A stretch of 64,000 nt of DNA, from assembly GCA_964511015.1 (NCBI GenBank), contig CAZEDX010000007.1, positions 11,337 to 75,336 on the forward strand, in the 5' to 3' direction. The stretch comes from an uncultured bacterium. GTDB taxonomy: Bacteria > Lernaellota > Lernaellaia > Lernaellales > Lernaellaceae. The stretch's first letter is position 1. Each line of letters opens with the position of its first letter. The position numbers and the translations under genes are program-made. Positions 37,990 through 64,000 of this stretch are shown piece after piece. The notes under the pieces were generated by a model. It saw nothing but the letters and a program-made list of their open reading frames with translations. It ran no database searches and had not been told where the DNA came from.

Positions 37990-39377
<1,388 letters not shown>

Positions 39378-46591: not shown

Positions 46592-47002
46592 ATGAGCCAC
46601 CAACTGCCCGAAACCCCGCTGTGCACGGTCGATATCATCATCCGCTTGGGCGACGGCCGCATCGTGCTGATCGAACGCAAGAACCCGCCGCACGGTTGGG
46701 CGATCCCGGGTGGTTTCATCGACCGCGGCGAGTCGGCCGAGGCCGCCGCCGTGCGCGAGGCGAAGGAAGAAACGAGCCTCGACGTAACGCTGGTGCGGCA
46801 GTTCCACGTCTACTCCGACCCGCACCGCGACGCGCGCTTCCATACGCTGTCGGTGGTTTTCGAGGCGACGGCCACCGGCACGCCGCGCGCCGCCGACGAC
46901 GCCAAGCACCTGGGCGTCTTCACCCCTGAAGAGGCGCTGGCTCTGCCGCTGGCATTCGACCACCGGCAGATTCTGACCGATTTCTTTGCCGGGAAGTTTT
47001 AA
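46592..47002 (+). CDS. NUDIX hydrolase
   Basis: [24 protein letters not shown] Nudix box; LAFDH. Confidence 0.93.
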
Positions 47003-47134
47003 GACCGGCAAACCCGACCCACTATATCTAGCCCGCCCGCCACCCCCCGGATACCACCCCTGTGTCGCTTTCATGGGAATGTCCTAAGCTGGTCATTTCA
47101 TGGAATTTTTCGCTGAATCGCGCCTAAAATTTCC

Positions 47135-47163
47135 TTGACAGGTGGGGTTCGATCCCATATGAT
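47135..47163 (+). promoter_or_regulatory. Sigma70 promoter of the dcw operon
   Basis: TTGACA (47135-40), 17 nt, TATGAT (47158-63). Confidence 0.85.
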
Positions 47164-47199
47164 CCCACACCAGTGGGGATCAGTCCCATCAAGTTCCAT
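47142..47199. promoter_or_regulatory. Probable MraZ operator (TGGG/CCCA boxes)
   Basis: GTGGG 47142, CCCAT 47154, CCCAC 47164, GTGGG 47173, CCCAT 47185, CCAT 47196; roughly 10-bp period overlapping the promoter. Confidence 0.7.
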
Positions 47200-47215
47200 T
47201 GCGCGAGGTCGAGCG

Positions 47216-47671
47216 GTGAGATTCACAGGCCTATTTCCCTTGGCGTTGGACGCGAAAGGACGCACGAGCGTCCCCGCGCCCATTCGCGAGGAATTGGCCA
47301 AAGCCGGCATCGACCGTCTGGTGATCACGACCGATCAGGTGCGCGCTTGCGACTGCCTGATCGTTTATCCCGAGCCGGTGTGGGAGAAGCTGATCCGGAA
47401 GTTTGAGCGTCTTCCGGAGATGGATCCGGACGTGGAAGTGTTCCGGGATACCCACATCGCTCCGGCGCAGCCCCTCACGATGGACGGGCAAGGCCGGGTT
47501 TTGATTCCTCAGTCGTTGCGGGACGAGGTGAAACTGGGGAGCAAGGTTGTCGTCGTGGCGGCCGGCGACACGTTTCGGATTTGGGACGCGGACCTCTGGG
47601 CGGCTGATCGTCAGGACGCCAAGGCGCGTTATGCCGAATCCAAAAAGGCGCTGGCAACGAGACTGAGCTGA
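47216..47671 (+). CDS. mraZ: Transcriptional regulator MraZ
   Basis: Two DxxGR motifs (LDAKGR, MDGQGR), FRIW; GTG start 47216. Confidence 0.95.
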   Translation: MRFTGLFPLALDAKGRTSVPAPIREELAKAGIDRLVITTDQVRACDCLIVYPEPVWEKLIRKFERLPEMDPDVEVFRDTHIAPAQPLTMDGQGRVLIPQSLRDEVKLGSKVVVVAAGDTFRIWDADLWAADRQDAKARYAESKKALATRLS

Positions 47672-48621
47672 TGGCCGCGCACCTGCCGGTGCTGCTGGCC
47701 GAGTCCGTGGACCTTTTGGCGCCCCGTGCGGGCGCCGTGCTGGTCGATGCCACGTGCGGGGCAGGCGGTCACACGATGAGGTTGGCGGACGCCGTCGGCA
47801 GCGACGGCTTGGTGTTGGCGATCGATCAGGATGATGCGGCCCTGGCGATCGCGCGAGAGAAGCTGGCGGGAACTATGAACGTCCGATTCGTCCGAGCCAA
47901 TTTCCGTCATCTCGCAAGCGTGCTGCGCGAGCAGGGTGTGAAGCAGGTGGACGGCATTCTCGCCGACCTGGGCGTCAGCTCGATGCAGCTCGACCAGGCC
48001 GAGCGCGGCTTCTCGTTTCGCGCCGACGGCGAGCTCGACATGCGGATGGATCGACGGGAGGCGCTGACGGCGGCCCGCTGGTTGCGCGAAACCGACGAAG
48101 CCGAACTCGGGCGCGTCTTCCGCGACTACGGCGAAGAACGCCGCTGGCGCGCGGTGGCCCGAGCGGTCGTGCGGCACCGCGAAGCAGGCGGCGCCTTCAC
48201 CGGCGGCGAGTTCCAGCGTCTGGTGCATCGCGCGTTGGGCACGCCCCGCAGCGGCGGTATTGACAGCGCCACGCGCTCGTTCCAGGCCGTGCGCCTGGCC
48301 GTGAACGACGAACTGGGCGCGCTGGAAGAATTTCTCGACGCCGCCATCGACGCGCTCGCCCCGGGCGGGCGCCTGGCGGTGATTTCGTTTCACAGCCTGG
48401 AAGATCGGGCGGTGAAACACCGGCTGCGAGAAGCCGCGACCGGCTGCCGCTGTCCGAAGGACCTGCCGGTCTGCGCTTGCGGCGGCCGACCTGTGCTGCG
48501 CTTGCTCGGCAAGGCCGTCACGCCGAGCGAGGACGAGGTGCGGGCGAACCCGCGCGCCCGTTCGGCCCGGCTGCGCGCGGCGGAAAAACTGGCGGACTCG
48601 AAGGAGGCGAACCATGGCTGA
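47671..48621 (+). CDS. rsmH: 16S rRNA m4C1402 methyltransferase
   Basis: HLPVLL, DATCGAGGH, DLGVSSMQLD...RGFSF, LDMRMD, ISFHSLEDR, NPRARSARLR. Confidence 0.97.
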   Translation: MAAHLPVLLAESVDLLAPRAGAVLVDATCGAGGHTMRLADAVGSDGLVLAIDQDDAALAIAREKLAGTMNVRFVRANFRHLASVLREQGVKQVDGILADLGVSSMQLDQAERGFSFRADGELDMRMDRREALTAARWLRETDEAELGRVFRDYGEERRWRAVARAVVRHREAGGAFTGGEFQRLVHRALGTPRSGGIDSATRSFQAVRLAVNDELGALEEFLDAAIDALAPGGRLAVISFHSLEDRAVKHRLREAATGCRCPKDLPVCACGGRPVLRLLGKAVTPSEDEVRANPRARSARLRAAEKLADSKEANHG

Positions 48622-48994
48622 GGCGTTTCGCGAAACCCCGTTTGAACGCCGGCCTGATTCCCTGCACGCGCCGAAGAAGCGCCGTCGCGCCGGCCGTTCA
48701 CCCGAGGAATGGGTCGACTGGCGCAGCGTGGCGCTCTTCCTGGGGCTGCTGACCCTAACCGTGCTGTATATGCTCGTGCTGACCAACGTGCGGGCTGAGG
48801 TCGTGCAACTGGGCTACGAACTGCACGACCTGCAATACAAAGCCGACTCGCTCGAGGTGGAGGTCGGCAATCTGTCGCGGGCGCGGCAGGGATTGCGTAG
48901 CCCGGAACGTTTGCAACAGTTGGCGACCGACCTGAAGTTGGCCAAGCCGAAGCCGGAACAACTCGTGGTGGTGCATGAACACCCGGCGAATTGA
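48614..48994 (+). CDS. ftsL: Cell division protein FtsL
   Basis: Single TM plus leucine-heptad coiled coil, SPERL; canonical position. Confidence 0.85.
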   Translation: MAEAFRETPFERRPDSLHAPKKRRRAGRSPEEWVDWRSVALFLGLLTLTVLYMLVLTNVRAEVVQLGYELHDLQYKADSLEVEVGNLSRARQGLRSPERLQQLATDLKLAKPKPEQLVVVHEHPAN

Positions 48995-51026
48995 CATCTA
49001 CCGCACGCACCGCCGCCGCCGCTCGCAGGCGCGGGCGGCGCGTCCGGGCCGCGCGTTCCATCTGGAGGAAACCCAGAAGGTGCGCGCCGGCATCGTGCTG
49101 GTGTTCTTCATTCTGCTGTTCGCCGTATTGTTGTACCGCGCTTTCGACCTGACCATTCTCAAGCACGACCGCCTGGTGGCGATGGCCGATCGCATGCACG
49201 ACATCTCGATCGAGTTGACCCAGCCGCGTGGCGAGATCATCGACCGAAACGGCGTGCCGCTGGCGGTGCGCACCATGGCCGAGTCGGTGTTCGCCGATCC
49301 GAAAAAGCTCGAAGACGTCGACCAGGCGGTGAAGCTGTTGTCGTCGGCGTTGTCGCTCGACCCGGAGATGCTGCACCAAAAGCTGGCCGACAAGACGCGG
49401 CGTTTCGTGTGGCTTAAGCGCAAGATTTCGGTGCAGGAATCGGCCGCGCTGCCGGCCAAATTGCCGCCCGGTCTCGGCCGCGTCAACGAATCGGCGCGGC
49501 AGTACCCTTACGGCCGCATGGCCGCCGCGTTGATCGGTTTCGCCGACATCGACACGGTCGGGCTGGAAGGCCTCGAACTGCAGTACGACGACGTCCTGGC
49601 CGGCCAGGCCGGCAAGATGATCGGCCAGCGCGACGCGCACCGGCGAATTTTCTTCCCCGACGGCGTGCAGGTGCGCGGCTTCGAACCGGGCGGCACGCTG
49701 CGGCTGACGCTCGACGCTCACATTCAGTGGTATGCTGAAAACGCGCTCGACGCGACGATGGCCGAGTTCAAACCGAAGGGCGCCTGGGCCATCGTGATGG
49801 ACGTGCAGACCGGCGAGATTCTGGCCATCGCCAACCGGCCGACTTACGACCCCAGCAATCCGTCGAAGTACCCGCCGGAAAACCGGCAGAACCGGGCGTT
49901 GATCAACCGCTACGAGCCCGGTTCCACCATGAAGCCGGTGACCATGGCGATGGGCCTGGAAGAGGGCAAGGTCGACCTCAACGAAAAGATCTACTGCGAA
50001 AGTGGCACTTGGCATCTCTATGGCTCGGTGATCCAGGACGCGCACGGCCACGGCTGGCTGACCCCGTCACAGATCATTCAGGTCAGCTCCAACATCGGCT
50101 CTGCGAAAATCGCCATGCGCCTGGGCCGCGAGAAGGTATGGGGTTGGCTGAGCAACTTCGGCTTTTCGCACCCCAGCGGCATCGATCTGCCCGGCGAAGC
50201 CAGTGGCCAGATGCTGCACTGGTCGCGCTGGTACCCAATCGCCGTGGCGACCCACGCTTACGGCCATGGCTTCTCGGTCACCGCGTTGCAGATGCTTTGT
50301 GCCATCTCCTGCCTGGGTAACCACGGCAACCTGATGAGGCCCTATGTTGTGGCCGAAACACTCGATGCCTCGGGCCGGGTGATCACCCGCAACTACCCGC
50401 AGATCCGCGGCCGCATTGTCAGCGAAAAGACGGCGCAGACCGTGGTCGACATGATGAAGCTGGTCACGCAGCAGGGCGGTACCGCCCGCCGTGCCGCGCT
50501 CGACGGTTTCGAAATCGCGGGCAAGACCGGCACCGCCTACAAGGTGAACGGGCAGACCCGCCGCTATGACAAGAGCCGGCTGGTAAGCAGCTTCGTCGGG
50601 CTGGCGCCGGGCTACGACCCGCAGCTCGGCATCATTGTCGTGGTCGACGAGCCGAGCGGACACGCCTACGGCGGCACCTGCGCGGCGCCGGCGTTCCGCG
50701 AGATCGCCGAGAACGCCCTGCGCTACCGCGGCATCTACGGCCGTCAGGGAGCCGAGACACAGCCGACGCCGCCGCGCCCACCGGTGCTGGTGAAGCGCGG
50801 GCCGGCGCCGAGCGCCACGCCCGCGCCGGAAATGCGTGCCGCGGCTGAAGGGCAGACGCCCAACTTCCTGGGCCTGACCATGCGCCGCGCCGTCCGTCTG
50901 GCGATCGAACAAGGCATCGAAATCCGCACCGTCGGCAGCGGGGTGGCGGTCGGGCAGAATCCGCCGCCGCACGAATCGTTGCCGGCGAACAAAGTGGTCA
51001 CCGTGCAGTTCGGACCGTCGAGCTGA
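48975..51026 (+). CDS. ftsI: Septal transpeptidase PBP3 with C-terminal PASTA-like domain
   Basis: RGEIIDRNG, EPGSTMK (SxxK), SSN, GKTGT; C-terminal PNFLGLT...G.G.AV.Q.P. Confidence 0.95.
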   Translation: MNTRRIDIYRTHRRRRSQARAARPGRAFHLEETQKVRAGIVLVFFILLFAVLLYRAFDLTILKHDRLVAMADRMHDISIELTQPRGEIIDRNGVPLAVRTMAESVFADPKKLEDVDQAVKLLSSALSLDPEMLHQKLADKTRRFVWLKRKISVQESAALPAKLPPGLGRVNESARQYPYGRMAAALIGFADIDTVGLEGLELQYDDVLAGQAGKMIGQRDAHRRIFFPDGVQVRGFEPGGTLRLTLDAHIQWYAENALDATMAEFKPKGAWAIVMDVQTGEILAIANRPTYDPSNPSKYPPENRQNRALINRYEPGSTMKPVTMAMGLEEGKVDLNEKIYCESGTWHLYGSVIQDAHGHGWLTPSQIIQVSSNIGSAKIAMRLGREKVWGWLSNFGFSHPSGIDLPGEASGQMLHWSRWYPIAVATHAYGHGFSVTALQMLCAISCLGNHGNLMRPYVVAETLDASGRVITRNYPQIRGRIVSEKTAQTVVDMMKLVTQQGGTARRAALDGFEIAGKTGTAYKVNGQTRRYDKSRLVSSFVGLAPGYDPQLGIIVVVDEPSGHAYGGTCAAPAFREIAENALRYRGIYGRQGAETQPTPPRPPVLVKRGPAPSATPAPEMRAAAEGQTPNFLGLTMRRAVRLAIEQGIEIRTVGSGVAVGQNPPPHESLPANKVVTVQFGPSS

Positions 51027-51040
51027 GTGAAGGAACCCGA

Positions 51041-52555
51041 ATGCGACTAAGCGCCCTTATCGCCGATCTGCCCTGGACTACCGTCGACCGCGATGCCGAG
51101 GTGGCGCGCGCGGTGGTCGATTCGCGCCGCGTGCAGCCGGGCGACCTGTTCGTCGCTATCCGCGGGCAGGAAATCGATGGGGCGAAGTTCATCCCCGCGG
51201 CGGTTGCGGCCGGGGCCGCGGCGATCGCGGTGGAAGGCGATGTGCCCAAACCCGGCGTGCCCGTGGTGCGCGTGGCCGACGCCCGGCGCTTCGCGGCCCT
51301 GGCGGCGCACCGGCTGGCCGGCGACCCGACCGCCGGCATGACCGTGATCGGCATCACCGGCACCAGCGGCAAGACCACCGTTACCTATCTGCTGGAAGCG
51401 ATCTTCAAGGCCCAGGGCCGGAAGGTTGGCGTGATCGGCACGGTCAACTACCGCTACAACGGCACCGTCGTGCAGGCCAAGTACACCACGCCCGAGGCGG
51501 CGGACTTGGTCGCCATTCTGCTCGAGATGAAAGACGCGGGCGTGGATACCGTGGTGATGGAGGTGTCCAGCCACGCGTTGCAGTTGCAGCGCGTCGTCGG
51601 CTGCCACTTCGACGCCGGGGTCTTCACCAACCTCTCGCGCGACCACCTTGACTTCCACGCCGGCCTCGACGCCTACCTGGCGGCGAAGATGCGGCTGTTC
51701 AACGAAATCCTGCCTGCCTCGGTGCGGTACAAGCCGGCCGTTTTTGCGGCGATCAACGTCGACGACCCGGTGGCCGCGCAGATCATCGCCGCCACGCCGG
51801 TGCCGCGCATTCTGTACGGCGACGGCGACACGGTGAGCTGGCGCGAGGTGAACTGCGACTTCAGCGGTTTGCGCGGCCGCCTGCGCTACGGCGATGTCGA
51901 GTTCGACGTGACCTGTCCGCTGCTCGGCGATTTCCAGATCTACAACGTGCTGGCCGCGGTCGCGGTGGCCCACGGCCTGCGTGTGCCGCCGGCGGTGGCG
52001 GCGGCCGGACTGGCCGTCTGCGGGCGCGTGCCCGGGCGGCTGGACGCGGTCGGCGAACAGGAATTCCTGGTGCTGGTCGACTACGCGCACAAGCCCGACG
52101 CGCTGGACAACGCGCTGGCCACATTGCGGCGCCTGGCGCGGGGCCGTGTCATCACCGTCTTCGGTTGCGGCGGCGACCGCGACCAGGGCAAGCGCCCGTT
52201 GATGGGCCGAGCCGCGGCGGCGCGATCGGATCTGACCATCGTCACCAGCGACAATCCGCGCACCGAAGACCCGCGCGCGATTATCAACATGATCCTGCCC
52301 GGGGTGCGGACCGCGGGCCTGCCGGAAATCGCGCCGGACCGGGCGGCGGCCTGGAACGGCGAGCCTGCGTTTGTGGTCGAACCGGACCGGGCGCGCGCGA
52401 TCCAATTGGCGGTGCGCGTGGCTCGCGCCGGCGACATCGTGCTGCTGGCGGGCAAAGGGCACGAAGACTACATGATCATCGGCCGTGAACGCATCCATTT
52501 CGACGACCGCGAGGTCGCCGCGGCGGCGCTGGCTGAACGCGCGGGAGAGAAGTGA
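51041..52555 (+). CDS. murE: UDP-MurNAc-tripeptide ligase (meso-DAP type)
   Basis: GITGTSGKTT, MEVSSHAL, TNLSRDHLD, DYAHKPD, DNPR, GKGHE. Confidence 0.97.
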   Translation: MRLSALIADLPWTTVDRDAEVARAVVDSRRVQPGDLFVAIRGQEIDGAKFIPAAVAAGAAAIAVEGDVPKPGVPVVRVADARRFAALAAHRLAGDPTAGMTVIGITGTSGKTTVTYLLEAIFKAQGRKVGVIGTVNYRYNGTVVQAKYTTPEAADLVAILLEMKDAGVDTVVMEVSSHALQLQRVVGCHFDAGVFTNLSRDHLDFHAGLDAYLAAKMRLFNEILPASVRYKPAVFAAINVDDPVAAQIIAATPVPRILYGDGDTVSWREVNCDFSGLRGRLRYGDVEFDVTCPLLGDFQIYNVLAAVAVAHGLRVPPAVAAAGLAVCGRVPGRLDAVGEQEFLVLVDYAHKPDALDNALATLRRLARGRVITVFGCGGDRDQGKRPLMGRAAAARSDLTIVTSDNPRTEDPRAIINMILPGVRTAGLPEIAPDRAAAWNGEPAFVVEPDRARAIQLAVRVARAGDIVLLAGKGHEDYMIIGRERIHFDDREVAAAALAERAGEK

Positions 52556-53958
52556 TGCACGATCTGTATACCGCCCGGAATCTGCAGGCGGCGCTCGGCG
52601 CGACACTCGTGCGGGGCGATGCCAACCGCACCTTCGCCGGCATTTCCACCGACACCCGCACCATTCGGCCGCGCGACTGTTTCGTGGCGCTAATCGGTCC
52701 GAACTTCAACGGCCACCACTTTCTGGCCGCGGCGGTCGAGAAAGACGCCGGCGGGCTGGTGGTCAGCGAAGACACGCCCACGCCGGGCGGCGACGAGGTG
52801 GTGGTACTGCGCGTGCCCGACACGCTGCAGGCGTTGGGCGACCTGGCGCGCTGGACGCTCGCGCAGCGCCACGTGCCGGTCATCGCCATCACCGGGTCGA
52901 CCGGCAAGACGACGACCAAGGAAATGCTTTCGGCCATCATGGAAATGCATCTGCCCGGGCGGGTGCTGCGCAATGAAGGCAACCTCAACAACTTGATCGG
53001 CCTGCCGCAGACCGTTTTCCAGCTCACCGCGAAGCACCAGGTGGCGGTGCTCGAAATGGGCATGTCGATGCGGGGCGAGATCCGGCGTCTGGCCGAGATC
53101 GCCCGGCCGCACATCGGCGTGGTGACCAACGTCAGCGCCGTGCACCTCGAACACCTCAAGACCATCGGCGCGGTGGCCGAGGCCAAGCGCGAACTGCTCG
53201 AGGATTTCGGCGCGCAGCACATCGCCGTGCTTAACGCCGACGACGAACGCGTCGCTCGCTTCGGCGAAGGACGCCCGTTTCGCTGCCTGTACTTTTCGGC
53301 CGAGCCGGGCAAGGCGGCCGATATCCGCGCCGGGCGGGTGCGCATGAAGGGCTTCGAGGGCATCGAGGTCGAGCTGGCCGTCGGCGGCGAGACGGTGCCG
53401 GTCACGCTGTCGTGCTTTGGCCGGCACAACATCATGAACGCGCTGGCTGCGGCCGGCGCCGCGTACGCCTTCGGCGTGCCGTTAGCCACGATCGCGCGCG
53501 GGCTCGAGGCCTTCCGGCCGGCGGCGATGCGCAGCCGCGTGCTGCACATCTTCGGCGTTACGGTGATCGACGACACTTACAACGCCAACCCGCGCAGCAT
53601 GGATGCGGCCCTGTCCGCCCTGGCCGAACTGGCCGGGCAGGGGCGCAAGATCGCCGTGCTGGGCGATATGTTCGAGCTGGGCGACGAATCCGCCGCCGCG
53701 CACCGGCGCCTCGGCCGGCACGCGGCGAAGATCGGGCTGGACCGCCTGATTCTGTTGGGCGAGCAGGCGCCGCTGGTCGCTGCGGGTGCGCGCGAGGAGC
53801 TGATGCCGGAAGAGCGGATCACGCTGGCCGCCGACGCCGCGCTGATCGTTGAGGATCTGCGCGAAAGCTCGCGCCGGGGCGACGTCATTCTGGTCAAGGG
53901 CAGCCGCGGCATGCGCATGGAACGCGTGGTGCGCGGGTTGAAAGGAGAAACGATCTGA
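52552..53958 (+). CDS. murF: UDP-MurNAc-pentapeptide ligase
   Basis: TGSTGKTTTK, GNLNNLIGLP, EMGM, DDTYNANP, LGDMFELG, VKGSRG. Confidence 0.97.
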   Translation: MMHDLYTARNLQAALGATLVRGDANRTFAGISTDTRTIRPRDCFVALIGPNFNGHHFLAAAVEKDAGGLVVSEDTPTPGGDEVVVLRVPDTLQALGDLARWTLAQRHVPVIAITGSTGKTTTKEMLSAIMEMHLPGRVLRNEGNLNNLIGLPQTVFQLTAKHQVAVLEMGMSMRGEIRRLAEIARPHIGVVTNVSAVHLEHLKTIGAVAEAKRELLEDFGAQHIAVLNADDERVARFGEGRPFRCLYFSAEPGKAADIRAGRVRMKGFEGIEVELAVGGETVPVTLSCFGRHNIMNALAAAGAAYAFGVPLATIARGLEAFRPAAMRSRVLHIFGVTVIDDTYNANPRSMDAALSALAELAGQGRKIAVLGDMFELGDESAAAHRRLGRHAAKIGLDRLILLGEQAPLVAAGAREELMPEERITLAADAALIVEDLRESSRRGDVILVKGSRGMRMERVVRGLKGETI

Positions 53959-55289
53959 TGTTGCTGACCGACCGCAAAGTGCTGGTGGTGGGCCTCGGAC
54001 GTAGCGGCCGCGCCGTGGTGCGCGTGGCCCGCGATCTGGGTGCTCGCGTCGCGGTCAGCGATAAAGCGAAGCGCGAAGATCTAGCGGAGGTGTTACGCGA
54101 CCTGGGGCCGGCGGTCGATCAGGTCGAGACCGGCGGACATTCCCCCGCCCTGTTCCGCTGGGCCGATTTGATCGTCGTCAGCCCCGGGGTTCCTCTGGCC
54201 GACCCGGTCTTTGCCATCGCGCGCGAGGCTGGCGCGGAAATCATTGGCGAAGTCGAGTTCGCGTTCCGCTATCTCGATTGTCCGGTGCTCGGCATCACCG
54301 GCACCAACGGCAAGTCCACCACGACAGCGTTGCTGGGCGCGATCATGCAGGCCAGCGGCAAGAAGGTATTCGTCGGCGGCAACCTGGGCACGCCGTTGAT
54401 CGAGGCGGTGGAGAACCGTGTGGAGTACGACTTCGCGGTGGTGGAGCTTTCGAGCTTCCAACTTGAAGGCATCCATCGCCTGCGTGCTACCGTCGCCGCG
54501 CTGCTCAACCTGACGCCCGACCACCTGAATCGCTACGCCGATTTCGACGCGTACGTCGCGGCCAAGTGCCGCATCTTCCGCAATCAACTGCCGTCCGACG
54601 CCGCGGTACTCAACGCCGGCGACGCCAAGGTCATGGCCCGCGCCGCCGAGGTGCGTTCGCGCCTGTTCACCTTCGGCCGCGCCGGCGGCAACGCCTGGAT
54701 CGAAGGCTCGACGCTGCGCTTGGAAAGCGACGAGTTCCACGACGCGATCGACATTGCCGGCTACCAACTGCCCGGCGCGCACAACCGCGCCAACCTCGAG
54801 GCGGCCGCGTTGATGGCCCGCCTGGCCGGCGCCGACGCCGCCGCCATCGCCCTGGCCGCTTCGACCTTTCCCGGTCTCGAACACCGCCTGGAGATCCTCG
54901 GCGAGCGCGACGGGGTGCTGTACATCAACGATTCCAAATCGACCACCGAAGACTCGGTGCTGACCGCGGTGGCGGCGATGAATCGGCCGGTGGTGCTGGT
55001 GCTCGGCGGCCGCGACAAGGGCGCCGATTGGGAAGCGCTCGACGAGGCGCTGGCCGGCCGCGTGCGCGCGGTGGTGGCCTACGGCGAGGCCGGCGACGTC
55101 ATCGCACGGCACCTGGTGCACACGCCGACCCGCTTGATGCCGCCGTTTGCCGCCGCGTTGGACGAAGCGGCGCGCTTGGCCCGCCCGGGGGACGTGGTGC
55201 TGCTCTCGCCGGGCTGCACCAGCTTTGACCAGTTCAAGAATTTCGAGGAACGCGGCGCCGCGATGCGCGCGTGGGTGAGGGAACGCTGA
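53958..55289 (+). CDS. murD: UDP-MurNAc-L-Ala:D-Glu ligase
   Basis: [56 protein letters not shown]. Confidence 0.97.
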
Positions 55290-56497
55290 TGGTCGAGCGG
55301 ACACGCCAGCATGGCTTCTCGTTCGACCGGCCGTTGCTGTTCCTGTTGCTGGTCATCATCAGCATCGGGCTGGTGATGGTCAGCAGCGCCAGCTTCCCGC
55401 TGCACGAGAACCCCTACCACTACTTCACGCGCCAACTGGTCTTCGTCGGCATCGGCCTGGTGCTGATGTTCTTCATCGGCAGCCGCGACATCCACCGCCT
55501 GAATTCGACTCCATTGGTCGTCACGCTGCTGGCTGTCAGTGGCGTGCTGCTGGCGCTGTGCTTCGTGCCGGGCATCGCCGCGCCGGCCAACGGTGCGCGC
55601 CGTTGGCTGCAAATCGGGCCGATTTCGGGCCAACCGTCGGAAATCGCCAAAGGCGCGGCTCTGCTGTTCTTCGCCCATTTCCTGGCTCGCAAGGGCGAGG
55701 ATGTGCGCGACTTCTGGCGCGGCGTGTTGCCGGTCACCCTGGCGGCTCTGGTAATCATCGGTGGCATCATCATCGAACCCGACCTCGGTGGCAGCACGAT
55801 GGTCGGTCTGTTGATGATGGTCATGTTGTTTCTCGCCGGCGCACGGCTGCGGGTGTTAGGCTTGTACGCGCTAGGGGGGCTGACCGGCTTCGTGGCGCTG
55901 ATGCTGTCCAACCCCTACCAGCTTCGCCGGCTGATGTCGTTCCTGCACCCGTGGGACGACCCGACCGGCACCAGCTACCAGATCAAAAATTCACTGATCG
56001 CGCTGGGCCGCGGCGGCTTGACCGGTGTCGGCGTCGGCAACGGCATGCAGAAGCTGTTCTTCCTGCCCGAAATCCACAACGACTTCATTCTGGCCAACCT
56101 CGGCGAGGAGCTCGGCCTGCTCGGCCTGTGGTTGGTTTTCATTCTGTTCGGCCTGTTGGTTTTCCGGTCGATGCGTTTGGCGATGCGCTGCCGCGAACCG
56201 TTTGCGCGGTTGATCGGCGCGGGCGCCGCGGCGCTGCTCGGGCTGCAGGTCGTGGTCAATGCCGCGGTGGTCATGTGCCTGGCCCCGACCAAGGGCCTGG
56301 CGATTCCGTTTCTGTCTTACGGCGGCAGTTCGGCAGTGCTCAATTTCAGCCTGATCGGCCTGATTCTGGCGGTCGGGCGGGCCGGCGGGCCGAAGACGGC
56401 GCCCGAAGCCGGGGTCGCCTGGCATCCGTTGCGCGACCGCCGCGTGGCCGGTCTGGAGGAACCATGTTCGGACGTACGGAACACATCCATTTCGTAG
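55289..56497 (+). CDS. ftsW: SEDS peptidoglycan polymerase FtsW
   Basis: GARRW...QPSE.AK, EPDLG, YQ...S..A.G.GG..G.G.G.G.QK..FLPE.HNDFI...GEE.G, PTKG..IPF.SYGGS. Confidence 0.96.
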
Positions 56498-57846
56498 GCA
56501 TCGGCGGCATCGGCATGAGCGGCATCGCCGAGGTGCTGCTCAATCTGGGCTACCGCGTCTCCGGTTCGGACATGAAGGACAGCGAGATCACCAAGAACCT
56601 GGAGCGCCTGGGCGCGACCGTGTTCGTCGGCCACACCGGGTCGAACATCGCCGGGGCCGACGTGGTGGTGACCAGCAGCGCGATCAAGCCGGACAACCCC
56701 GAGATCACCGCGGCGCGCGCCGCCGCCGTGCCGGTCATTCCGCGGGCCGAGATGCTGGCCGAACTGATGCGCATGAAGTACGGTGTGGCGGTGGCCGGCA
56801 CGCACGGCAAGACGACGACCACCAGCCTGATCGCCACGGTGCTCAACGCGGCCGGGTTCGATCCGACGGTCGTGGTCGGCGGGCGGGTCGACGCGCTCGG
56901 CTCGAACGCCAAGCTCGGCCGCAGCCAGTATTTCGTGGCTGAGGCCGACGAATCCGACGGCAGCTTCCTGCTACTCACCCCGACCATCGCCGTGGTGACC
57001 AACATCGACCTGGAGCACCTCGACTACTACAGCGGCATGGAGCAGCTCAAGCGCACGTTCCTCACCTTCCTGAACAAGGTGCCGTTCTACGGGCTGTGCG
57101 TGATGTGCCATGACGACGAAAACGTGCGTGCGTTGCTGCCGCAGATCCGCAAACGCCTGGTGACCTATGGTCTGACGCAGTCGGCTGAGTTCTTCGCTAG
57201 CGACATCGTGCAGGAGCAGTTCGGCACGCGCTTCATCGCCCACCACACGCAGGCCGGTCGCCTGGGCGAGATCCGCCTGCAGTTGCCCGGCCGGCACATG
57301 GTGCAAAACGCCCTGGCGGCGTTGGCCGTCGCGATGGAACTGGGCGTGAAGTTCGAAGTCGCCGCCGCGGCGATGGCGCAATTCGGCGGCGTGCGGCGCC
57401 GGTTCCAACGCGTCGGCGAAGTCAACAACATTCTGGTCATCGACGACTACGGCCACCACCCGACCGAGATCAAGGCGACGCTGGCCGCGGCGCGCGGCGG
57501 CTTCCAGCGCCGGCTGGTGGTCGCCTTCCAGCCGCACCGGTACACCCGCACGCGCGACCTGTTCGACATGTTCTTGTCGGCGTTTAACGACACCGACAAG
57601 TTGATCATCACCGACATCTACGCGGCCAGCGAAACGCCGCTGGAAGGCGTGACGGCGAAGAAGCTGGTCGACGGCATCCGGGCCATCGGCCATTGCGACG
57701 TCGAATACGTGACCAGCAACGACCAGGTGCTCGAGCGCTTGGTAGAGATCGCGCGGCCGGGCGACCTGATCATGACCCTGGGCGCCGGCGACCTGAACAA
57801 GGTGGCCGTGAGACTGGTGGAACGGTTGAGTGGAGGCCGGGCGTGA
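56464..57846 (+). CDS. murC: UDP-MurNAc:L-Ala ligase
   Basis: ATG 56464 with GGAGGA SD; [41 protein letters not shown]. Confidence 0.97.
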
Positions 57847-58778
57847 CCACACAGCGCATCCAGGAACGACTGCGGCAGATCTTCGGCGATCGCTGCGAGT
57901 TCGGCGTGCCGATGGCGCCGTTGACCACTTGGCAGGTCGGCGGCCCGGCCGACTGCCTGGTGCGTCCGGTAGCCGCCGACGAAGTCGCCGAGGTGATGCG
58001 CCTGTGCGCCGAATTCCAGTTGCCGGTGCGCGTGGTCGGCAACGGTTCGAACTTGCTGGTGCTCGACGGCGGCCTGCGTGGCGTGACGATGCTGATCCGC
58101 CAGGGCTTCGACCGCTTCGAGCCGAAATTCAGCGGCGAGAACAACGTCGAGCTGGCGGTCGGCGCGGCGCTGTCGATGGCCCGCGCGGTCGACCAGTGCG
58201 CGGCGGCCGGCATCGCCGGCCTGGAATTCCTGGCCGGTATCCCCGGCTCGATCGGCGGCGGCGTGCGCATGAACGCCGGCACACGCGAAGGCGACATTTC
58301 GCGGGTGCTGACTGAGATCGAACTGGTCGACGCCGACGGCAAGGTGCGCCGGGTGCCGCGCGACAAGTTGGTCTATCGCTACCGCGGCCTGGTGTACGAC
58401 GGGCCGTTCGTGATCACCGAAGTGCGCCTGGCGTTGCGGCGCGGCGACGCGGCGCAGATCGCCGCCGCGGTGCAGAAAATCATCGCCTGGCGGCGCGGCC
58501 GACACCCGTACGAATTGCCCAGCGCCGGTTCGACCTTCAAGAACCCGGAAGGGCAGTTCGCCGGCGAATTGATCGAACGTGCCGGCCTCAAGGGCACGCG
58601 CATCGGCGGCGCGCAGGTCAGCGAAAAGCACGCCAATTTCCTGGTCAATCTCGGCCACGCCACGGCGGCAGATGTGTTGGCGCTGATTGAACGTGTGCGG
58701 CAGGTGGTCTTCGAAAAAACCGGCGTGATGCTCGAGCCGGAAGTCAAGATTTGGGGGGAAAAAGATGTGGCGGAATAG
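57843..58778 (+). CDS. murB: UDP-N-acetylenolpyruvoylglucosamine reductase
   Basis: [44 protein letters not shown]. Confidence 0.96.
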
Positions 58779-59715
58779 GCGCGTCGGCGTGTTGTTCGGC
58801 GGCCCGAGCGCCGAACGGGAAGTCTCGTTGAAGACCGGGCAGGCGGTGTGCGGCGCGCTGCGGCGCAAAGGCTACGACGTGGTGGAACTCGATCTGGACG
58901 ACCAGACCGCAGCCCGTTTGCGCGCCGAGCGGATCGACGTGGTCTACAATGCCCTGCACGGCAAATGGGGCGAGGACGGCTGTGTGCAGGGGTTGCTTGA
59001 GATCCTGCGCATCCCGTACACCGGCCCGGGTGTGACCTCCTCGGCCGTCGGCATGGACAAGGTCATCAGCAACCGGCTGTTCCAGGCGGCGGGCTTGCCG
59101 GTGCCGCCGAACCGCGTGATCGACCGGACTGACTGCGTGGCGTTCGTGAATGCGGACTCGCCCTTCGGCTACCCGCTGGTGATCAAGCCGGCGACCGAAG
59201 GCAGCAGCGTCGGCGTGACCGTGGTGCCGCAGGCGGCGCAGTTGGCCGCGGCGCTGGACAAGGCTTTCGCCGCCGACCAACGCGTGATCGCCGAGCAGTA
59301 TTTGCCCGGGCGCGAGATTCAGGTGGCGGTGCTGGGCAGGCAGGCGATCGGTATCGTCGAGGTGAAGCCGAAGCCGCAGCCCGGCGAGGAGATCACCTTT
59401 TACGACTACGCGCACAAGTACACCAAGGGCATGACCGACTACTTCACCCGGCCGGCCGGGCTCGACGAAGCGCTGGTGCGCGCGGCGGAAGAGATGGCCG
59501 TTCGCGCCTGCCAAGCGATTCTGGCCGAGGGCGTTTGCCGGGTGGATCTGATTCTCGACGGCCAGAACCGTTACTGGGTGTTGGAAGTCAACACGCTGCC
59601 CGGCCTGACGGAGTTGTCACTGGTGCCGATGATCGCGCGTGACTGGCGCGGTCTGGCCTTCGACGACCTGGTAGAAATGGTGCTCAACACGGCGCGGCTG
59701 AAGATCGGCGCGTAA
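58765..59715 (+). CDS. ddl: D-alanine--D-alanine ligase
   Basis: GGPSAEREVSL, LHGKWGEDG, KPATEGSS, YDY..KY, EVNTLPG. Confidence 0.96.
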   Translation: MWRNRRVGVLFGGPSAEREVSLKTGQAVCGALRRKGYDVVELDLDDQTAARLRAERIDVVYNALHGKWGEDGCVQGLLEILRIPYTGPGVTSSAVGMDKVISNRLFQAAGLPVPPNRVIDRTDCVAFVNADSPFGYPLVIKPATEGSSVGVTVVPQAAQLAAALDKAFAADQRVIAEQYLPGREIQVAVLGRQAIGIVEVKPKPQPGEEITFYDYAHKYTKGMTDYFTRPAGLDEALVRAAEEMAVRACQAILAEGVCRVDLILDGQNRYWVLEVNTLPGLTELSLVPMIARDWRGLAFDDLVEMVLNTARLKIGA

Positions 59716-59728
59716 GGACGGAACGCGA

Positions 59729-60595
59729 ATGATCCGGACCAAGAGCGAAAACGGACGGCGAAAGGCGGGGCGGCTGGCCCGGCACAACCGGCCGCGCGGC
59801 CTGATCAAGGCCCGCGTGGTGGCGTTCGCCTGTTCGCTCCAACCGCGGGTGCTGGGCCTGTGGCGGCTGTGGCCGGCGGCGATCTTTCTGGCGCTGGTGG
59901 TGCTACTGCACCAGAACTTCACCCGCGCCGATCAGTTCCGGCTGCGCACGATCGACGTGCCCGAATGCCGCCACCTGACCAAGGCGGCGTTGCTCAATTA
60001 CCTGCATTTCCGGCCCGGCCAGAACATCTTCACCGTCGATGTGCGCGGCGCGGCCGACCGCATCGCCGAGCATCCGTGGGTCAAGACGGCGTCGGTGCGG
60101 CGCCAACTGCCCGACCTGGTTGTGGTCGAGCTGACCGAACGTGAGCCGGTGGCTCTGCTGCGGATGGACGCGCTCTACCTGGTCGACGAAGACGGCGAGC
60201 CGTTCAAGAAGGTCGAGCCGACCGATCCGGTGGATCTGCCGCTGTTGACCGGCTTCGACGCCACCGCGTTTCAGCGCGGCGGCCGGGCGGCCCAACGGGC
60301 GGCCATGCTGATCCGCGAAGGGGCGCGGCTGATTCAGGCTGGCCAGCGCGTTGGCCGTCTCGACCCGCAAGACATCAGCGAGGTGCGCTACGAGGCCAGC
60401 GGCGGGTTTACCTTCATCACCGCCGAAACCGGCGCCCAGATTCGTCTGGGTTTCGGCGACTACGACAAGAAACTCCGGCGCTTCGCCGTCGTTTCGCAGC
60501 AGATCGGCGCGCGGATGGCGCAGGTGCGCCTGGTTGACGTCAGCATTCCCGGCCGCGTGGTGGTGCGCGGCCTGCGCCAGGAGGCGGGGGCATGA
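59729..60595 (+). CDS. ftsQ: Cell division protein FtsQ/DivIB
   Basis: Basic N-terminus, TM, POTRA (HPWVK.ASVRR.LP..V), ERE P.A; canonical position. Confidence 0.9.
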   Translation: MIRTKSENGRRKAGRLARHNRPRGLIKARVVAFACSLQPRVLGLWRLWPAAIFLALVVLLHQNFTRADQFRLRTIDVPECRHLTKAALLNYLHFRPGQNIFTVDVRGAADRIAEHPWVKTASVRRQLPDLVVVELTEREPVALLRMDALYLVDEDGEPFKKVEPTDPVDLPLLTGFDATAFQRGGRAAQRAAMLIREGARLIQAGQRVGRLDPQDISEVRYEASGGFTFITAETGAQIRLGFGDYDKKLRRFAVVSQQIGARMAQVRLVDVSIPGRVVVRGLRQEAGA

Positions 60596-61821
60596 AGAAG
60601 CCGAATCCGCTGGTCGTCGGTCTGGATATCGGAACCACCAAGGTGTGCGCCGTGGTCGCGCAGCGCACCACCGCGGGCATGGACATCACCGGCCTGGGCA
60701 CCTCGCCCAGCGAAGGCATGCGCAAGGGCGTGGTGGTCGACATCGAGTCGACGGTCAAGTCGATCACCGCCGCGGTGGAAGAGGCCGAGGCGATGGCCAA
60801 GTGCGAGATCGGCTCGGTGTTCGTCGGCATCGCCAGCGGCTACATCAAGGGCTTCAACAGCCAGGGCATGATCGCGTTGCGCGACAAGGACGTTACCGCC
60901 GAAGACGTCGCGCGCGTCATCGACGCCGCCAAGGCCGTGGCCATTCCGACCGACCGCGAAGTGCTTCACGTGCTGCCGCGCGAATTCATTCTCGACGGGC
61001 AGGGCGGGATCAAAGACCCGATCGGCATGCAGGGCGTGCGTTTGGAAGTGATGTGCCACATCGTCACCGGCCAGGCCGCCAGCGCCAGCAATCTGATTCG
61101 TTGTTGCCACCAGGCCGGCCTGGACGTCGACAACCTGATTCTCGAGCCGCTGGCCAGCGCCGAGGCCGTGCTCACTGCCGAGGAACGCGAACTGGGCGTG
61201 GCGCTGGTCGACGTCGGCGGCGGCACGACCGACATGGTGGTCTACGTCGACGACGCGGTTGCGCACACCGCCGTGCTCGGCCTGGGCGGCATGCAGATCA
61301 CCAACGACATCGCCCACGGCATGCAGACCACCGCGGCCAGCGCCGAGTGGTTGAAGAAACGCTACGGCCACTGCGTGCCGGGCAAGATCGTGCCGGGCGA
61401 GGAAATCGAAGTCGAATCGCTGGGCGACCGCGAGCCGCGGCTGATGGACCGGCGGATGCTCAGCGAGATCACCGAAGCGCGCGTGCGCGAGATTCTCGAT
61501 CTGATCCACGAAGAGATCATGCGGCAGGAACTCGACGTGCACATCCCGGCCGGCATCGTGCTGACCGGCGGCACGGCGGAACTGCGCGGCATCGAGGAGT
61601 TGGCCGAGCGCATCTTCGGCTGCCCGGTGCGGGTGGGGCGGTCGCGGCACATCGGCGGCCTGGTCGATGTCGTCGCCAGCCCGATGTACGCGACGGGCGT
61701 GGGCCTGGTGCTATTGGGCGCGCGCGAGCTCGCCGCCGGCCGGTTGCCGGTGGGCGATCGCGGCGTGTTCGACAAAGTGAAAGATACGATGTCCGGATGG
61801 ATGAAGAAATTGTGGTCCTGA
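60592..61821 (+). CDS. ftsA: Cell division protein FtsA
   Basis: [28 protein letters not shown]-terminal amphipathic helix ([10 protein letters not shown]). Confidence 0.97.
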
Positions 61822-61864
61822 GATTGTGCGGCACGGGAGCTTGGGGCTCCGAAGGAGGGAAAGG

Positions 61865-63091
61865 ATGTCTCTGAAGTTCAAGATCGTAGAGCCGGATAGC
61901 GGCGCCAAGTTGAAGGTCGTCGGCATCGGCGGCGGCGGCGGCAACGCCGTCAACACGATGATCGAGGCTGGCCTCCAGGGCGTGGAATTCATCGCCTGCA
62001 ACACCGACAAGCAGGCGCTGGCGTCCAACCTGGCGGCGGTCAAGGTGCAGCTCGGCATCGGCTTGGGGGCCGGCGGCAAACCGGAGGTCGGCGCGCGGTC
62101 GGCCGAGGAGAGCCGCGAGAAGCTGCGCGAGGTGCTCGACGGCGCCGACATGGTGTTCGTCACCGCGGGCATGGGCGGCGGCACCGGCACCGGCGGCGCG
62201 CCGGTCGTGGCCAAGATCGCCAAGGAAATGGGTGCGCTGACGGTCGGCGTAGTGACCAAGCCGTTCCATTTCGAAGGCAAGCGGCGCATGCGGCAGGCCG
62301 AGGAAGGCATCGCCAAGCTGCGCGAGCACGTGGATACGATCATCATCATTCCGAACCAGAAATTGCTGGCCGTGGCCGGCACCGACACCACGCTGGTCGA
62401 CGCCTTCCGGCGCGCCGACGACGTGTTGCTCAAGGGCGTGAAGGCGATCTCCGACCTGGTGGTGAACCAGGGCGCGGTGAACCTCGACTTCGCTGACGTC
62501 GAATCGGTGATGGAAGCGACCGAGTCCACCGGCGAACTGGCGTTGATGGGCACCGGCGAAGCGGCCGGCGCCGACCGCGCGGTCAAGGCCGCGGCGGAGG
62601 CGATCAGCTGCCCGTTGCTGGAAAACGTCAGCATCGAAGGCGCGCGCGGGGTGTTGATCAACATCACCGGCGGCGCCGATCTCAAGCTGTGCGAAGTCAC
62701 CGCGGCGGCCGATCTGATCAAGAAGGCGACCGCCGAAGATGCGGCGATCTTCTGGGGCCAGGTCATCGACCCGACGCTCACCGACGTACTGCGCGTGACG
62801 GTCATCGCCACCGGTTTCGACGAGGCGCGCGAACACGCGCAGACGCCGGTGGTCGAACGGCAGAAGGTGACCTACCTCAACCAGGCCGTCGAGCCGGAGG
62901 CAAAAGAGACGCGTGCGCCGCGCCAACGCGCCGAGCGGGTCGAGGAAGCGCCGATTACCGTCGAGACCGATCCGAAATTGAACCAGCCGCGGCGCAAGGT
63001 GGCGGTGCACACCTGGCGGTCGAGCCGGTTGCAGGCCGACGACGACGCCTACGACATTCCGGCGTTTCTGCGGTATCGCAAACCGGATTGA
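61865..63091 (+). CDS. ftsZ: Cell division GTPase FtsZ
   Basis: [32 protein letters not shown]-terminal DIPAFLR; ATG 61865 with SD. Confidence 0.98.
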
Positions 63092-63140
63092 GCAGGAGCA
63101 GTTCGTGAGCCCCCGCCTTTGCCCAGATAGAACACAGGCT

Positions 63141-63270
63141 TCGCCGCCGCACGCGGCGAGGATCACTCAGGGATCATCCTCGGGAGTTCGTGGTCCTTCC
63201 CCCCGGCCGGGACCCCTCTACCCCTCTGTGCCGCACAGCCCGGCCTAACATCACGAACTCCGACTCGGAT
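63141..63270. ncRNA. Candidate structured RNA in the ftsZ 3' region
   Basis: Hairpin 63141-59; rod GGAGTTCGTG/CACGAACTCC enclosing GGCCGGG/CCCGGCC and CTGTG/CACAG with C-rich loops; no credible ORF. Confidence 0.45.
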
Positions 63271-63273
63271 TCA

Positions 63274-63306
63274 GGCCGCCGAACACCCCTTCGGCGGCCC
63301 TTTTTT
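63274..63306 (+). terminator. Rho-independent terminator closing the dcw/ftsZ transcript
   Basis: GGCCGCCGAA-CACCCC-TTCGGCGGCC followed by CTTTTTT. Confidence 0.9.
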
Positions 63307-63448
63307 GTTCTTAGACTCTGGCGTTTTGGCTTTGGGCTGTAGTTTGGAACAGGCATTTTTGGTTGAACGTTGCCCGTTCTCCGATAACCAAGGCCCGGAA
63401 TCCGGATCCCGGTATACGAAAAACTCCGACACGGGACTCCAACAACAC

Positions 63449-64000
63449 TTAGCAGCCACAGCCGCCGGTGTCGTCATCATCATCGCCGGTTCCCTGGTCG
63501 TCGTCGGCATCGTCGTCGGCGGCGGTGTCGTCATCGGCGGCGTCGTCGTCGGCCGGCGGGGCGTCTTCGGGTTTGGCGGCGTTGGAGATGTAAGACATCA
63601 GCCCGACGTCGTCGAACGAACGCAGGGCGAAGGAGGCCGCGCCGGGCGCCGTGACCTTCACCACCACTTCCAGACCGCCCTCGATGGGTGTGACGCTTTC
63701 CAGCGATGTCGCGCCGGACCAACCGCTCGCGCTGCGCAAGTCGACGCCGCTATCCGTGGTGTAGCGCAGATCGTAGGACAGCGCCGTGCCGCAATCGTGG
63801 TCGTCGCCGGGCGCGGTGAAGTGCAGTTCGAAGACGTCCGGATCATCGGTCTTGTAGGCGACCAGATCGCGCACCATGCGCGGCGGCAGCGTGTCGGCGC
63901 CGTAGAAGCCGCTGTTGTAGTTGTCGTGGTGGAACCGACCCCATTCGCGCGTGCTCTCGCCACGGCGGCAAGCCTTGCCACGCGTGTACCAGGCGAACAG
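63449..64000 (-). CDS. C-terminal part of a probable secreted/surface protein (FN3-like domain, Asp-rich linker, terminal GGCGC); 5' end off window
   Basis: Frame open from 64000: ...WGRFHHDNYNSG...FTAPGDDHDCGTALSYDLRY...DDDAADDDTAADDDADDDQGTGDDDDDTGGCGC-TAA. Confidence 0.85.
   Translation of the reverse strand: MFAWYTRGKACRRGESTREWGRFHHDNYNSGFYGADTLPPRMVRDLVAYKTDDPDVFELHFTAPGDDHDCGTALSYDLRYTTDSGVDLRSASGWSGATSLESVTPIEGGLEVVVKVTAPGAASFALRSFDDVGLMSYISNAAKPEDAPPADDDAADDDTAADDDADDDQGTGDDDDDTGGCGC

What the first reader, a model, noticed from the sequence alone, without database searches (positions are those of the whole stretch)
56380..56497. murG missing; ftsW runs 34 nt into murC
murG normally lies between ftsW and murC. 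Here murC starts at 56464 (GGAGGA SD) inside an extended, non-conserved-looking ftsW tail ([29 protein letters not shown]), which resembles a deletion scar. No GGTGGH-type MurG N-terminus is found in any frame nearby. This is the second lipid II step lost from the same operon.
Basis: partly seen in the sequence, partly recalled or inferred. Interest (0 to 1): 0.65.

Follow-up and report, generated by a model that had tools for sequence, protein, structure and literature searches.

The report
Cell-wall operon lacking mraY and murG
In this uncultured wastewater bacterium and its relatives, a subgroup of candidate phylum Lernaellota, the otherwise intact cell-division and cell-wall operon has cleanly lost the genes mraY and murG, an old inherited rearrangement and not a fresh deletion scar or an assembly error; where the two genes now sit could not be found.

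Summary
In the window, ftsW (55289-56497) is followed directly by murC (56464-57846) with a 34-nt overlap. murF is followed directly by murD. No MurG or MraY homologue is detectable anywhere in the 64 kb.

The "deletion scar" reading is not supported:
- The same order, murF-murD-ftsW-murC, is found in seven other independent contigs whose FtsW is 42-100% identical, including Ca. Lernaella stagnicola.
- These genomes form one clade (100/100 NJ bootstraps).
- The sister lineages and Ca. Alcyoniella australis keep the canonical murF-mraY-murD-ftsW-murG-murC.
- The roughly 30-residue FtsW tail is also present in the canonical relatives and is predicted to be disordered.
- Deep-branching clade members stop ftsW 2 nt before the murC ATG. 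The window's subclade lost that stop and reads on into murC.
- Unitigs from two wastewater runs span both junctions.

Best explanation: both genes left the operon on the stem of this clade and are now encoded elsewhere. That last step is inferred. This is a modest new variant of known dcw gene delocalisation.

The parts
47135..47163 (+). Promoter-like site (TTGACA-17-TATGAT, 11 of 12) just upstream of mraZ. It is the only such site in 46500-64000.
47216..47671 (+). mraZ (GTG start, 151 aa, as called in the 99.2%-identical contig L008)
   Evidence: Pfam MraZ; gene call in L008
47671..48621 (+). rsmH (mraW)
   Evidence: TIGR00006, 318.6 bits
48614..48994 (+). ftsL-position gene (126 aa, no family hit), assigned by position only
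48975..51026 (+). ftsI (class B penicillin-binding protein)
51041..52555 (+). murE
52555..53958 (+). murF. Its TGA stop shares base 53958 with the murD ATG. The canonical mraY slot is empty.
53958..55289 (+). murD. Its TGA shares base 55289 with the ftsW ATG.
55289..56497 (+). ftsW (402 aa; SEDS glycosyltransferase). The last transmembrane helix ends near residue 366. Residues 370-402 form a predicted disordered tail.
56464..56497 (+). 34-nt ftsW/murC overlap. The last 11 FtsW codons are read in an alternative frame of the first 11 murC codons. The canonical murG slot is empty.
56455..56460 (+). GGAGGA ribosome-binding site of murC, inside the ftsW coding sequence
56464..57846 (+). murC (460 aa)
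   Evidence: TIGR01082, 566.8 bits
57843..58778 (+). murB (311 aa, by analogy with relatives)
58765..59715 (+). ddl
59729..60595 (+). ftsQ
60592..61821 (+). ftsA
61866..63091 (+). ftsZ (ATG at 61866, preceded by GAAGGAGG)
63274..63308 (+). Terminator-like hairpin (10 pairs, 8 G-C) followed by a T run, just after ftsZ

Best explanation
The window carries a complete, compact division and cell-wall (dcw) operon: mraZ-rsmH-ftsL-ftsI-murE-murF-murD-ftsW-murC-murB-ddl-ftsQ-ftsA-ftsZ. Consensus scans find one promoter-like site before mraZ and one strong terminator-like hairpin after ftsZ.

In the common ancestor of a clade within candidate phylum Lernaellota (FEN-1099), the two lipid-linked step genes were removed cleanly from this operon. 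That clade includes Ca. Lernaella stagnicola and this wastewater organism. The two genes are mraY (lipid I synthesis) and murG (lipid II synthesis).

What was left behind are tight, translationally coupled junctions: murF TGA overlapping murD ATG, and the ftsW stop sitting 2 nt before the murC ATG. Later, in the subclade containing the window, the ftsW stop codon was lost. FtsW now reads 34 nt (55 nt in one relative) into murC, in another frame. This adds 11 incidental residues to a tail that already existed and is predicted to be disordered and cytoplasmic. The murC ribosome-binding site lies inside ftsW, so murC translation is probably coupled to ftsW translation.

Shown: the gene content, the junction anatomy, the phylogenetic distribution, and the independence from any one assembly.

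Inferred: that mraY and murG are still present elsewhere in the genome. This follows from the intact, conserved MurB-F, Ddl, FtsW and FtsI, which have no use without lipid II.
For: Gene identities are all above curated cut-offs.

The order murF-murD-ftsW-murC is seen in seven other contigs:
- L001 and L002: FtsW 74% identical
- L003 and L004: 57%; L003 is from GCA_035405285.1
- L005: Ca. Lernaella stagnicola, GCA_030765525.1, 42%
- L006: 42%
- L007: only ftsW-murC is visible
- L008: GCA_020047475.1

A concatenated MurE/F/D/FtsW/MurC NJ tree gives {window, L001, L003, L005, L006} 100/100 bootstrap support. It places them as sister to the canonical L010/L016 lineage.

The canonical order, with mraY and murG in place, is seen in L010, L016, L018, L009 and in Ca. 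Alcyoniella australis L017.

The tail is present in all members and in the canonical relatives. It has pLDDT below 50 over residues 370-402.

Independence from assembly: L008 is 99.2% identical over 13.4 kb, with 104 mismatches, so it is a separate population. Logan unitigs from two wastewater runs span both junctions: 2045 bp over 55954-57000, 406 bp over 53890-54295, and 235 bp over 56301-56535.

A single promoter-like site and a terminator-like hairpin bracket the operon.

Leonard et al. 2022 (PMC8871954) describe dcw history as 'mainly gene loss or gene delocalization'.
Against: The relocated mraY and murG were never found.

- A search of one genome per GTDB species for an adjacent mraY->murG pair gave 5 hits, none with Lernaellota-like G+C content.
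- Homology searches seeded with MurG and MraY of the sister lineage returned no protein named for either annotated clade genome among the best 120. Alcyoniella's MraY did appear, at rank 18.

This is only weak evidence. The cut-off for the MraY list was about 63% identity. Alcyoniella's own canonical MurG was also missing from the MurG list.

The promoter and terminator are consensus matches only. No transcript data were examined.
Confidence: 0.85

Rival explanations
1. Recent deletion: murG (and mraY) were deleted recently in this genome. The extended FtsW tail would then be the scar, and the organism may be losing lipid II synthesis.
For: The gene is absent from its canonical slot, and the last 11 FtsW residues are unrelated to canonical FtsW.
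Against: The same arrangement is found in relatives down to 42% FtsW identity, and they form a monophyletic clade. There are no murG or mraY remnants at the 0-2 nt junctions. All neighbouring genes are intact and score above family cut-offs. The tail predates the event.
Confidence: 0.02
2. Assembly or binning artefact: murG and mraY were collapsed out of the contig.
For: The window comes from a metagenome-derived contig, and its depth in public runs is low, about 2-6x.
Against: An independent NCBI assembly, 99.2% identical with 104 SNPs, has the same order. Seven further contigs from ENA, JGI and NCBI agree. Unitigs from two runs cross both junctions with 1-5 mismatches.
Confidence: 0.01
3. 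Genuine absence or non-orthologous replacement: the clade has no canonical MraY or MurG. It would make lipid-linked precursors with very divergent, horizontally acquired or analogous enzymes.
For: None of my searches retrieved a clade MraY or MurG. The two annotated clade MAGs have no named hit among the 120 best relatives of the sister lineage's MraY, although the more distant Alcyoniella does. A MurG paralogue that can replace MurG is known in Kitasatospora (PMC8092295, title and abstract listed; the paper itself was not read).
Against: The searches were rank-limited, not genome-wide, and the cut-offs lay close to the expected identity. To my knowledge, every bacterium with FtsW/FtsI and the full Mur pathway has MraY and MurG. 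The clade keeps MurB-F, Ddl, FtsW and FtsI under evident constraint.
Confidence: 0.06
4. The 11-residue FtsW extension is itself functional, for example as a new interaction motif. On this view the overlap is selected for its protein product and is not a by-product.
For: The motif C[SL]D.RN..[ST]S recurs in six relatives.
Against: It overlaps the conserved MurC N-terminal codons, which explains the recurrence. Its length varies (34 nt against 55 nt) according to synonymous changes in murC, for example GTA against GTG. It is absent in deeper-branching clade members and is predicted to be disordered.
Confidence: 0.05

Closest known systems
Canonical dcw cluster (E. coli and B. subtilis type: mraZ-rsmH-ftsL-ftsI-murE-murF-mraY-murD-ftsW-murG-murC-(murB)-ddl-ftsQ-ftsA-ftsZ)
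   Same: Same genes, same order, same strand and tight or overlapping junctions for 14 genes. There is a promoter-like site before mraZ.
   Different: mraY and murG are both missing from their slots. murB is inside the cluster, as in many non-enteric bacteria.
Lineage-specific dcw gene delocalisation (Cyanobacteria, Planctomycetes, Chloroflexi sub-clusters; Leonard et al. 2022, PMC8871954)
   Same: Genes leave an ancient cluster while being kept in the genome, and the loss characterises a taxon.
   Different: Here the rest of the cluster is untouched. Exactly the two membrane-associated lipid-linked steps are removed, with seamless junctions. I found no description of this pattern in the papers searched.
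dcw clusters of the nearest relatives: L010/L016 lineage, L018/L063 lineage, Ca. Alcyoniella australis (L017)
   Same: MurC and MurF are 53-66% identical. The FtsW tail has the same length. The cluster boundaries are the same.
   Different: They retain mraY and murG. ftsW overlaps murG by ATGA, and murG abuts or slightly overlaps murC (adjacent in L010 and L016; an 11-nt overlap in L017).
Translationally coupled overlapping genes in bacterial operons
   Same: The downstream ribosome-binding site and start codon lie inside the upstream ORF, and the upstream stop lies shortly after the downstream start.
   Different: A 34-nt out-of-frame overlap is longer than the usual 1- or 4-nt overlaps found elsewhere in this same operon.
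MglA, an alternative lipid II synthase that can replace MurG in Kitasatospora (PMC8092295)
   Same: It is a precedent for lipid II synthesis encoded outside the dcw cluster.
   Different: MglA is a MurG paralogue that coexists with a dcw-encoded murG. Nothing of this kind was identified here.

Membership tests
dcw cluster (canonical composition) | Co-directional contiguous block from mraZ/rsmH to ftsA/ftsZ containing the mur ligases, ftsI and ftsW | tested here: met
dcw cluster (canonical composition) | mraY between murF and murD | tested here: not met
   murF and murD share base 53958. There is no PNPT homologue in the window.
dcw cluster (canonical composition) | murG between ftsW and murC | tested here: not met
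   ftsW and murC overlap by 34 nt. There is no GT28 homologue or GGTGGH motif in the window.
FtsW (SEDS family, TIGR02614 / PF01098) | Full-length match above the curated cut-off | tested here: met
   366.8 bits against 337.5, residues 20-369
FtsW (SEDS family, TIGR02614 / PF01098) | Polytopic membrane fold and the conserved Asp in the PE.H.DF motif | tested here: met
   The AF2 model is helical through residue 366. P260, D265 and F266 are invariant across 13 homologues. Equating D265 with the catalytic Asp rests on my knowledge of SEDS proteins.
MurC (TIGR01082) | Full-length match above the cut-off, starting at the proposed ATG | tested here: met
   566.8 bits against 335.1, residues 7-451 to model positions 1-448
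MurG (GT28; PF03033 + PF04101) | Any homologous ORF in the window | tested here: not met
MurG / MraY elsewhere in the genome | A homologue on another contig of the same genome | not testable with these tools
   There is no whole-genome access. Rank-limited searches did not retrieve one.
Deletion scar / pseudogene remnant | Residual murG or mraY coding fragments, frameshifts, or variability among close relatives | tested here: not met
   tblastn at E <= 1 is negative in the window and in L001-L008. The junctions are 0-2 nt and conserved.
Candidate phylum Lernaellota (FEN-1099) | Clusters with named members on conserved proteins and on synteny | tested here: met
   The window is monophyletic with the Ca. 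Lernaella stagnicola contig L005 on 5 proteins. It shares the Pkinase-NUDIX-dcw synteny. No 16S or GTDB placement was done.

The most novel reading that the evidence does not exclude
The Lernaella-containing clade has no canonical, vertically inherited MraY and MurG. The two lipid-linked steps would then be carried out by strongly divergent, horizontally acquired or non-homologous enzymes, while the cytoplasmic Mur pathway and FtsW/FtsI remain canonical.

A milder version: the two genes were moved together into a new operon, for example by duplication of mraY-murD-ftsW-murG followed by reciprocal loss, and have evolved unusually fast since.
Probability: 0.07. Interest if true: 0.85.

Novelty: new variant of a known kind. 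Interest (0 to 1): 0.3.

Why it matters
[quoted passage not shown] A clade that has removed exactly the two membrane-bound, lipid-linked steps, and left the other 14 genes and their coupling intact, is a natural experiment. It tests how far co-localisation of these genes with the divisome genes is needed (the 'genomic channelling' idea).

It also gives a simple synapomorphy that separates the Lernaella clade from Alcyoniella and other FEN-1099-related lineages.

For annotation, it warns against calling these genomes lipid II-deficient, or the FtsW tail a pseudogene remnant. If the two genes were truly absent, the case would be far more important. That is unlikely.

Tried and rejected
1. Whole-window search for MurG and MraY with tblastn, motif patterns and Pfam on all large ORFs: nothing. 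A weak tblastn hit at 21378-21788 lies in a B12-binding radical SAM protein.

2. Scan of one genome per GTDB species for MraY 'MAPxHHH' followed 110-170 nt later by MurG 'GGTGGH'. This tests whether the two genes are adjacent or fused. It gave 5 real mraY->murG pairs (two Rikenellaceae MAGs, one Ruminococcaceae MAG, two low-GC MAGs), none Lernaellota-like.

3. Homology search with the sister lineage's MurG. The top group P0122-P0128 belongs to the canonical L010/L016 lineage.

4. Homology search with the sister lineage's MraY. It found Alcyoniella's MraY (context L017) and P0253 (context L018), both inside canonical clusters.

5. Exhaustive profile search of 50%-identity cluster representatives with a MurG profile. 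Candidates P0364 and P0384 lie on the same contigs as MraY P0251 and P0268, judged by matching contig lengths. Their context could not be read because the look-ups were exhausted.

6. Metagenome scan with the high-GC MurG group P0213, P0216, P0238 and P0362, chosen for motifs shared with the sister lineage. It turned out to be a 72-75% GC lineage with canonical clusters.

7. Linking MraY P0284 (MBZ0273906.1) to the window's species through NCBI accession numbering. The relevant assemblies carry no protein accessions.

8. Viral-contig scan for MraY: no relatives.

9. Papers on Lernaellota say nothing about peptidoglycan genes, and no supplements are held.

10. The 'joints' reported when laying reads are short cross-matches of conserved Mur-ligase motifs from other organisms, not rearrangements.

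Full report
**What is there**

The window (63% G+C) carries on its + strand a compact dcw operon. NCBIfam and Pfam identify these genes:
- mraZ 47216-47671
- rsmH 47671-48621
- an ftsL-position gene 48614-48994
- ftsI 48975-51026
- murE 51041-52555
- murF 52555-53958
- murD 53958-55289
- ftsW 55289-56497
- murC 56464-57846
- murB 57843-58778
- ddl 58765-59715
- ftsQ 59729-60595
- ftsA 60592-61821
- ftsZ 61866-63091

The Mur ligases, MurB, Ddl, RsmH and FtsW all score above their curated cut-offs.

A consensus scan of 46500-64000 finds a single sigma-70-like site (TTGACA-17-TATGAT) at 47135-47163, before mraZ. It also finds one strong hairpin with a T run at 63274-63308, after ftsZ. This fits one long transcription unit, although these are only pattern matches.

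**The observation**

The murC ATG is at 56464, GGAGGA is at 56455-60, and the ftsW TAG is at 56495-97. The overlap is 34 nt and the tail sequence is as quoted.

There is no murG between ftsW and murC and no mraY between murF and murD. The murF stop and murD start share base 53958, and the murD stop and ftsW start share base 55289.

Neither gene is anywhere in the 64 kb:
- tblastn with genuine MraY and MurG taken from the nearest canonical relatives found nothing at E <= 1.
- The GGTGGH pattern has no match, even with one mismatch.
- Pfam on every other sizeable ORF shows no GT28 or PNPT domain.

**It is not an artefact**

An independent NCBI assembly (GCA_020047475.1, locus L008) is 99.2% identical to window 45289-58701, with 104 mismatches. 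It is therefore a different population, and it has the same gene order.

The organism occurs in wastewater and sludge metagenomes. Logan unitigs cross both junctions with 1-5 mismatches:
- run X1: 2045 bp over 55954-57000
- run X1: 406 bp over 53890-54295
- run X2: 235 bp over 56301-56535

**It is not recent**

FtsW homologues fall off in steps: 74, 70 and 68%, then 55-57%, then 47-50%, then 42% (Ca. Lernaella stagnicola).

I read the gene neighbourhoods of members at each depth: L001/L002, L003/L004, L005 (Lernaella, GCA_030765525.1), L006 and L007. All show murF-murD-ftsW-murC, with almost identical gene lengths and junctions. Most also share an upstream Ser/Thr kinase and NUDIX gene.

The nearest proteins outside this group sit in canonical clusters with mraY and murG in place:
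- the L010/L016 lineage, with MurF and MurC 61-64% identical to the window's
- the L018/L063 lineage
- Ca. Alcyoniella australis (L017), the other named Lernaellota genus
- a 'Deltaproteobacteria' MAG (L009)

An NJ tree of concatenated MurE, MurF, MurD, FtsW and MurC (2120 columns) recovers {window, L001, L003, L005, L006} in 100 of 100 bootstraps, as sister to L010/L016.

The most economical reading is that both genes left the operon on the stem of this clade. The trait is not phylum-wide, because Alcyoniella is canonical.

**The tail and the overlap**

In an alignment of 13 FtsW proteins, every member has a tail of about 30-45 residues after the last transmembrane helix (...GLILAVGR). Canonical relatives have one of the same length (L010...RRTVRKPARRKSTGTMPLGEIAR*).

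AlphaFold2 with this alignment gives a helical bundle through residue 366. Residues 370-402 have pLDDT below 50 and no secondary structure. The tail therefore predates the loss of murG and is not a scar.

In the deeper-branching members (L005, L006, L007), ftsW ends ...GGAGA(T/A/G)-stop, 2 nt before the murC ATG. In the window's subclade that stop is a sense codon. FtsW runs on in an alternative frame of murC until the first stop in that frame:
- 34 nt in the window and L003: TAG, created by the murC Val codon GTA
- 55 nt in L001: where that codon is GTG

The recurring C[SL]D.RN..[ST]S is the shadow of the conserved MurC N-terminus [11 protein letters not shown] regard the 11 extra residues as incidental. 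The arrangement places the murC ribosome-binding site and start inside ftsW, so translational coupling is likely. This is inferred, not tested.

**Where are mraY and murG?**

This is the part I could not settle. The intact and conserved MurB-F, Ddl, FtsW and FtsI make sense only if lipid II is made. I therefore infer that both genes exist elsewhere.

The attempts:
1. A scan of one genome per GTDB species for an adjacent mraY->murG pair found five real cases, none with Lernaellota-like composition.
2. Homology searches seeded with the sister lineage's MurG and MraY returned that lineage, Alcyoniella and the L018 lineage. All those I could check were canonical.
3. A profile search of cluster representatives and a metagenome scan led only to canonical clusters of other lineages.

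One thing stays mildly odd. On Mur ligases the clade is closer to L010 than Alcyoniella is. Yet Alcyoniella's MraY ranks 18th among relatives of L010's MraY, while no protein from the two annotated clade MAGs appears in the best 120. The list's cut-off (about 63% identity) is close to the expected value, so this is a hint of faster evolution or replacement, not evidence.

The following are unverified candidates whose neighbourhoods should be read: MraY P0251, P0252, P0257, P0261, P0263 and P0284, plus P0268 and P0255, and MurG P0364 and P0384. They are equidistant from the L010 and L018 lineages.

**Comparison and novelty**

Delocalisation of individual dcw genes in particular taxa is a known phenomenon (PMC8871954). 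Gene overlaps with coupling are commonplace.

What is particular here is the selective and seamless removal of exactly the two lipid-linked steps from an otherwise canonical 14-gene operon, shared by a whole clade. I found no mention of it in the Lernaellota papers. I class it as a new variant of a known kind, of modest interest.

The exciting alternative is true absence or replacement of MraY and MurG. It is not excluded, but it is improbable.

Noticed in passing
window 44873-47002; also L001, L005, L006, L008 upstream of mraZ: A Ser/Thr protein kinase (554 aa; Pfam matches only the kinase domain) and a NUDIX hydrolase sit immediately upstream of mraZ. This pairing is conserved across the clade that lacks mraY and murG. 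L003 keeps only the NUDIX gene. It is not seen upstream of the canonical relatives L010, L017 or L018.
   Followed up: partly
window 18867-23326 (+): A SAM methyltransferase is followed by two B12-binding radical SAM proteins (476 and 515 aa) and a third B12-binding-domain ORF. This looks like a possible modification or natural-product cassette.
   Followed up: no
window 26634-30905 (-): A 1423-aa hybrid histidine kinase with multiple PAS and GAF domains and a receiver domain. Two further histidine kinase and sigma-54 activator pairs lie at 9663-11387 with 17173-18549, and at 36133-39377.
   Followed up: no
window 24234-26531 (-), 42114-43625 (-), 34195-36072 (+): Large ORFs with high third-position G+C. 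The first two have no Pfam hit. 34195-36072 has only a borderline PMT_2 (GT-C glycosyltransferase) match.
   Followed up: partly
L011-L015 (genome-contig hits): Directly adjacent mraY->murG pairs exist in two Rikenellaceae MAGs, a Ruminococcaceae MAG and two MAGs of about 31-33% G+C. They suggest the reciprocal rearrangement, with murD-ftsW removed from between them.
   Followed up: partly
L091 3302-4405: A stand-alone murG has GGSGGH instead of GGTGGH. Its neighbours are a WrbA-like flavodoxin and ispG, with no dcw genes within 3.3 kb upstream. It comes from an unidentified 65% G+C organism.
   Followed up: partly
P0242 (571 aa) and P0259 (459 aa), MraY hits: These MraY proteins have an internal tandem duplication of a large part of the sequence, on short contigs. 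They are probably assembly chimeras but were not checked.
   Followed up: no
L018 13895-16301: In this long-read contig the murG and murC genes are broken into fragments (a 247-aa Glyco_tran_28_C piece and a 170-aa Mur_ligase_C piece). Homopolymer or indel errors are more likely than real pseudogenes.
   Followed up: no
window 56317-57005 (-): ORFs antisense to ftsW and murC (162 and 151 aa; third-position G+C 0.94). These are the usual shadow ORFs of a high-GC gene, not genes.
   Followed up: partly
window 3300-7357 (-) and 8058-8513 (+): A grpE-dnaK-dnaJ chaperone cluster and a small FHA-domain protein.
   Followed up: no
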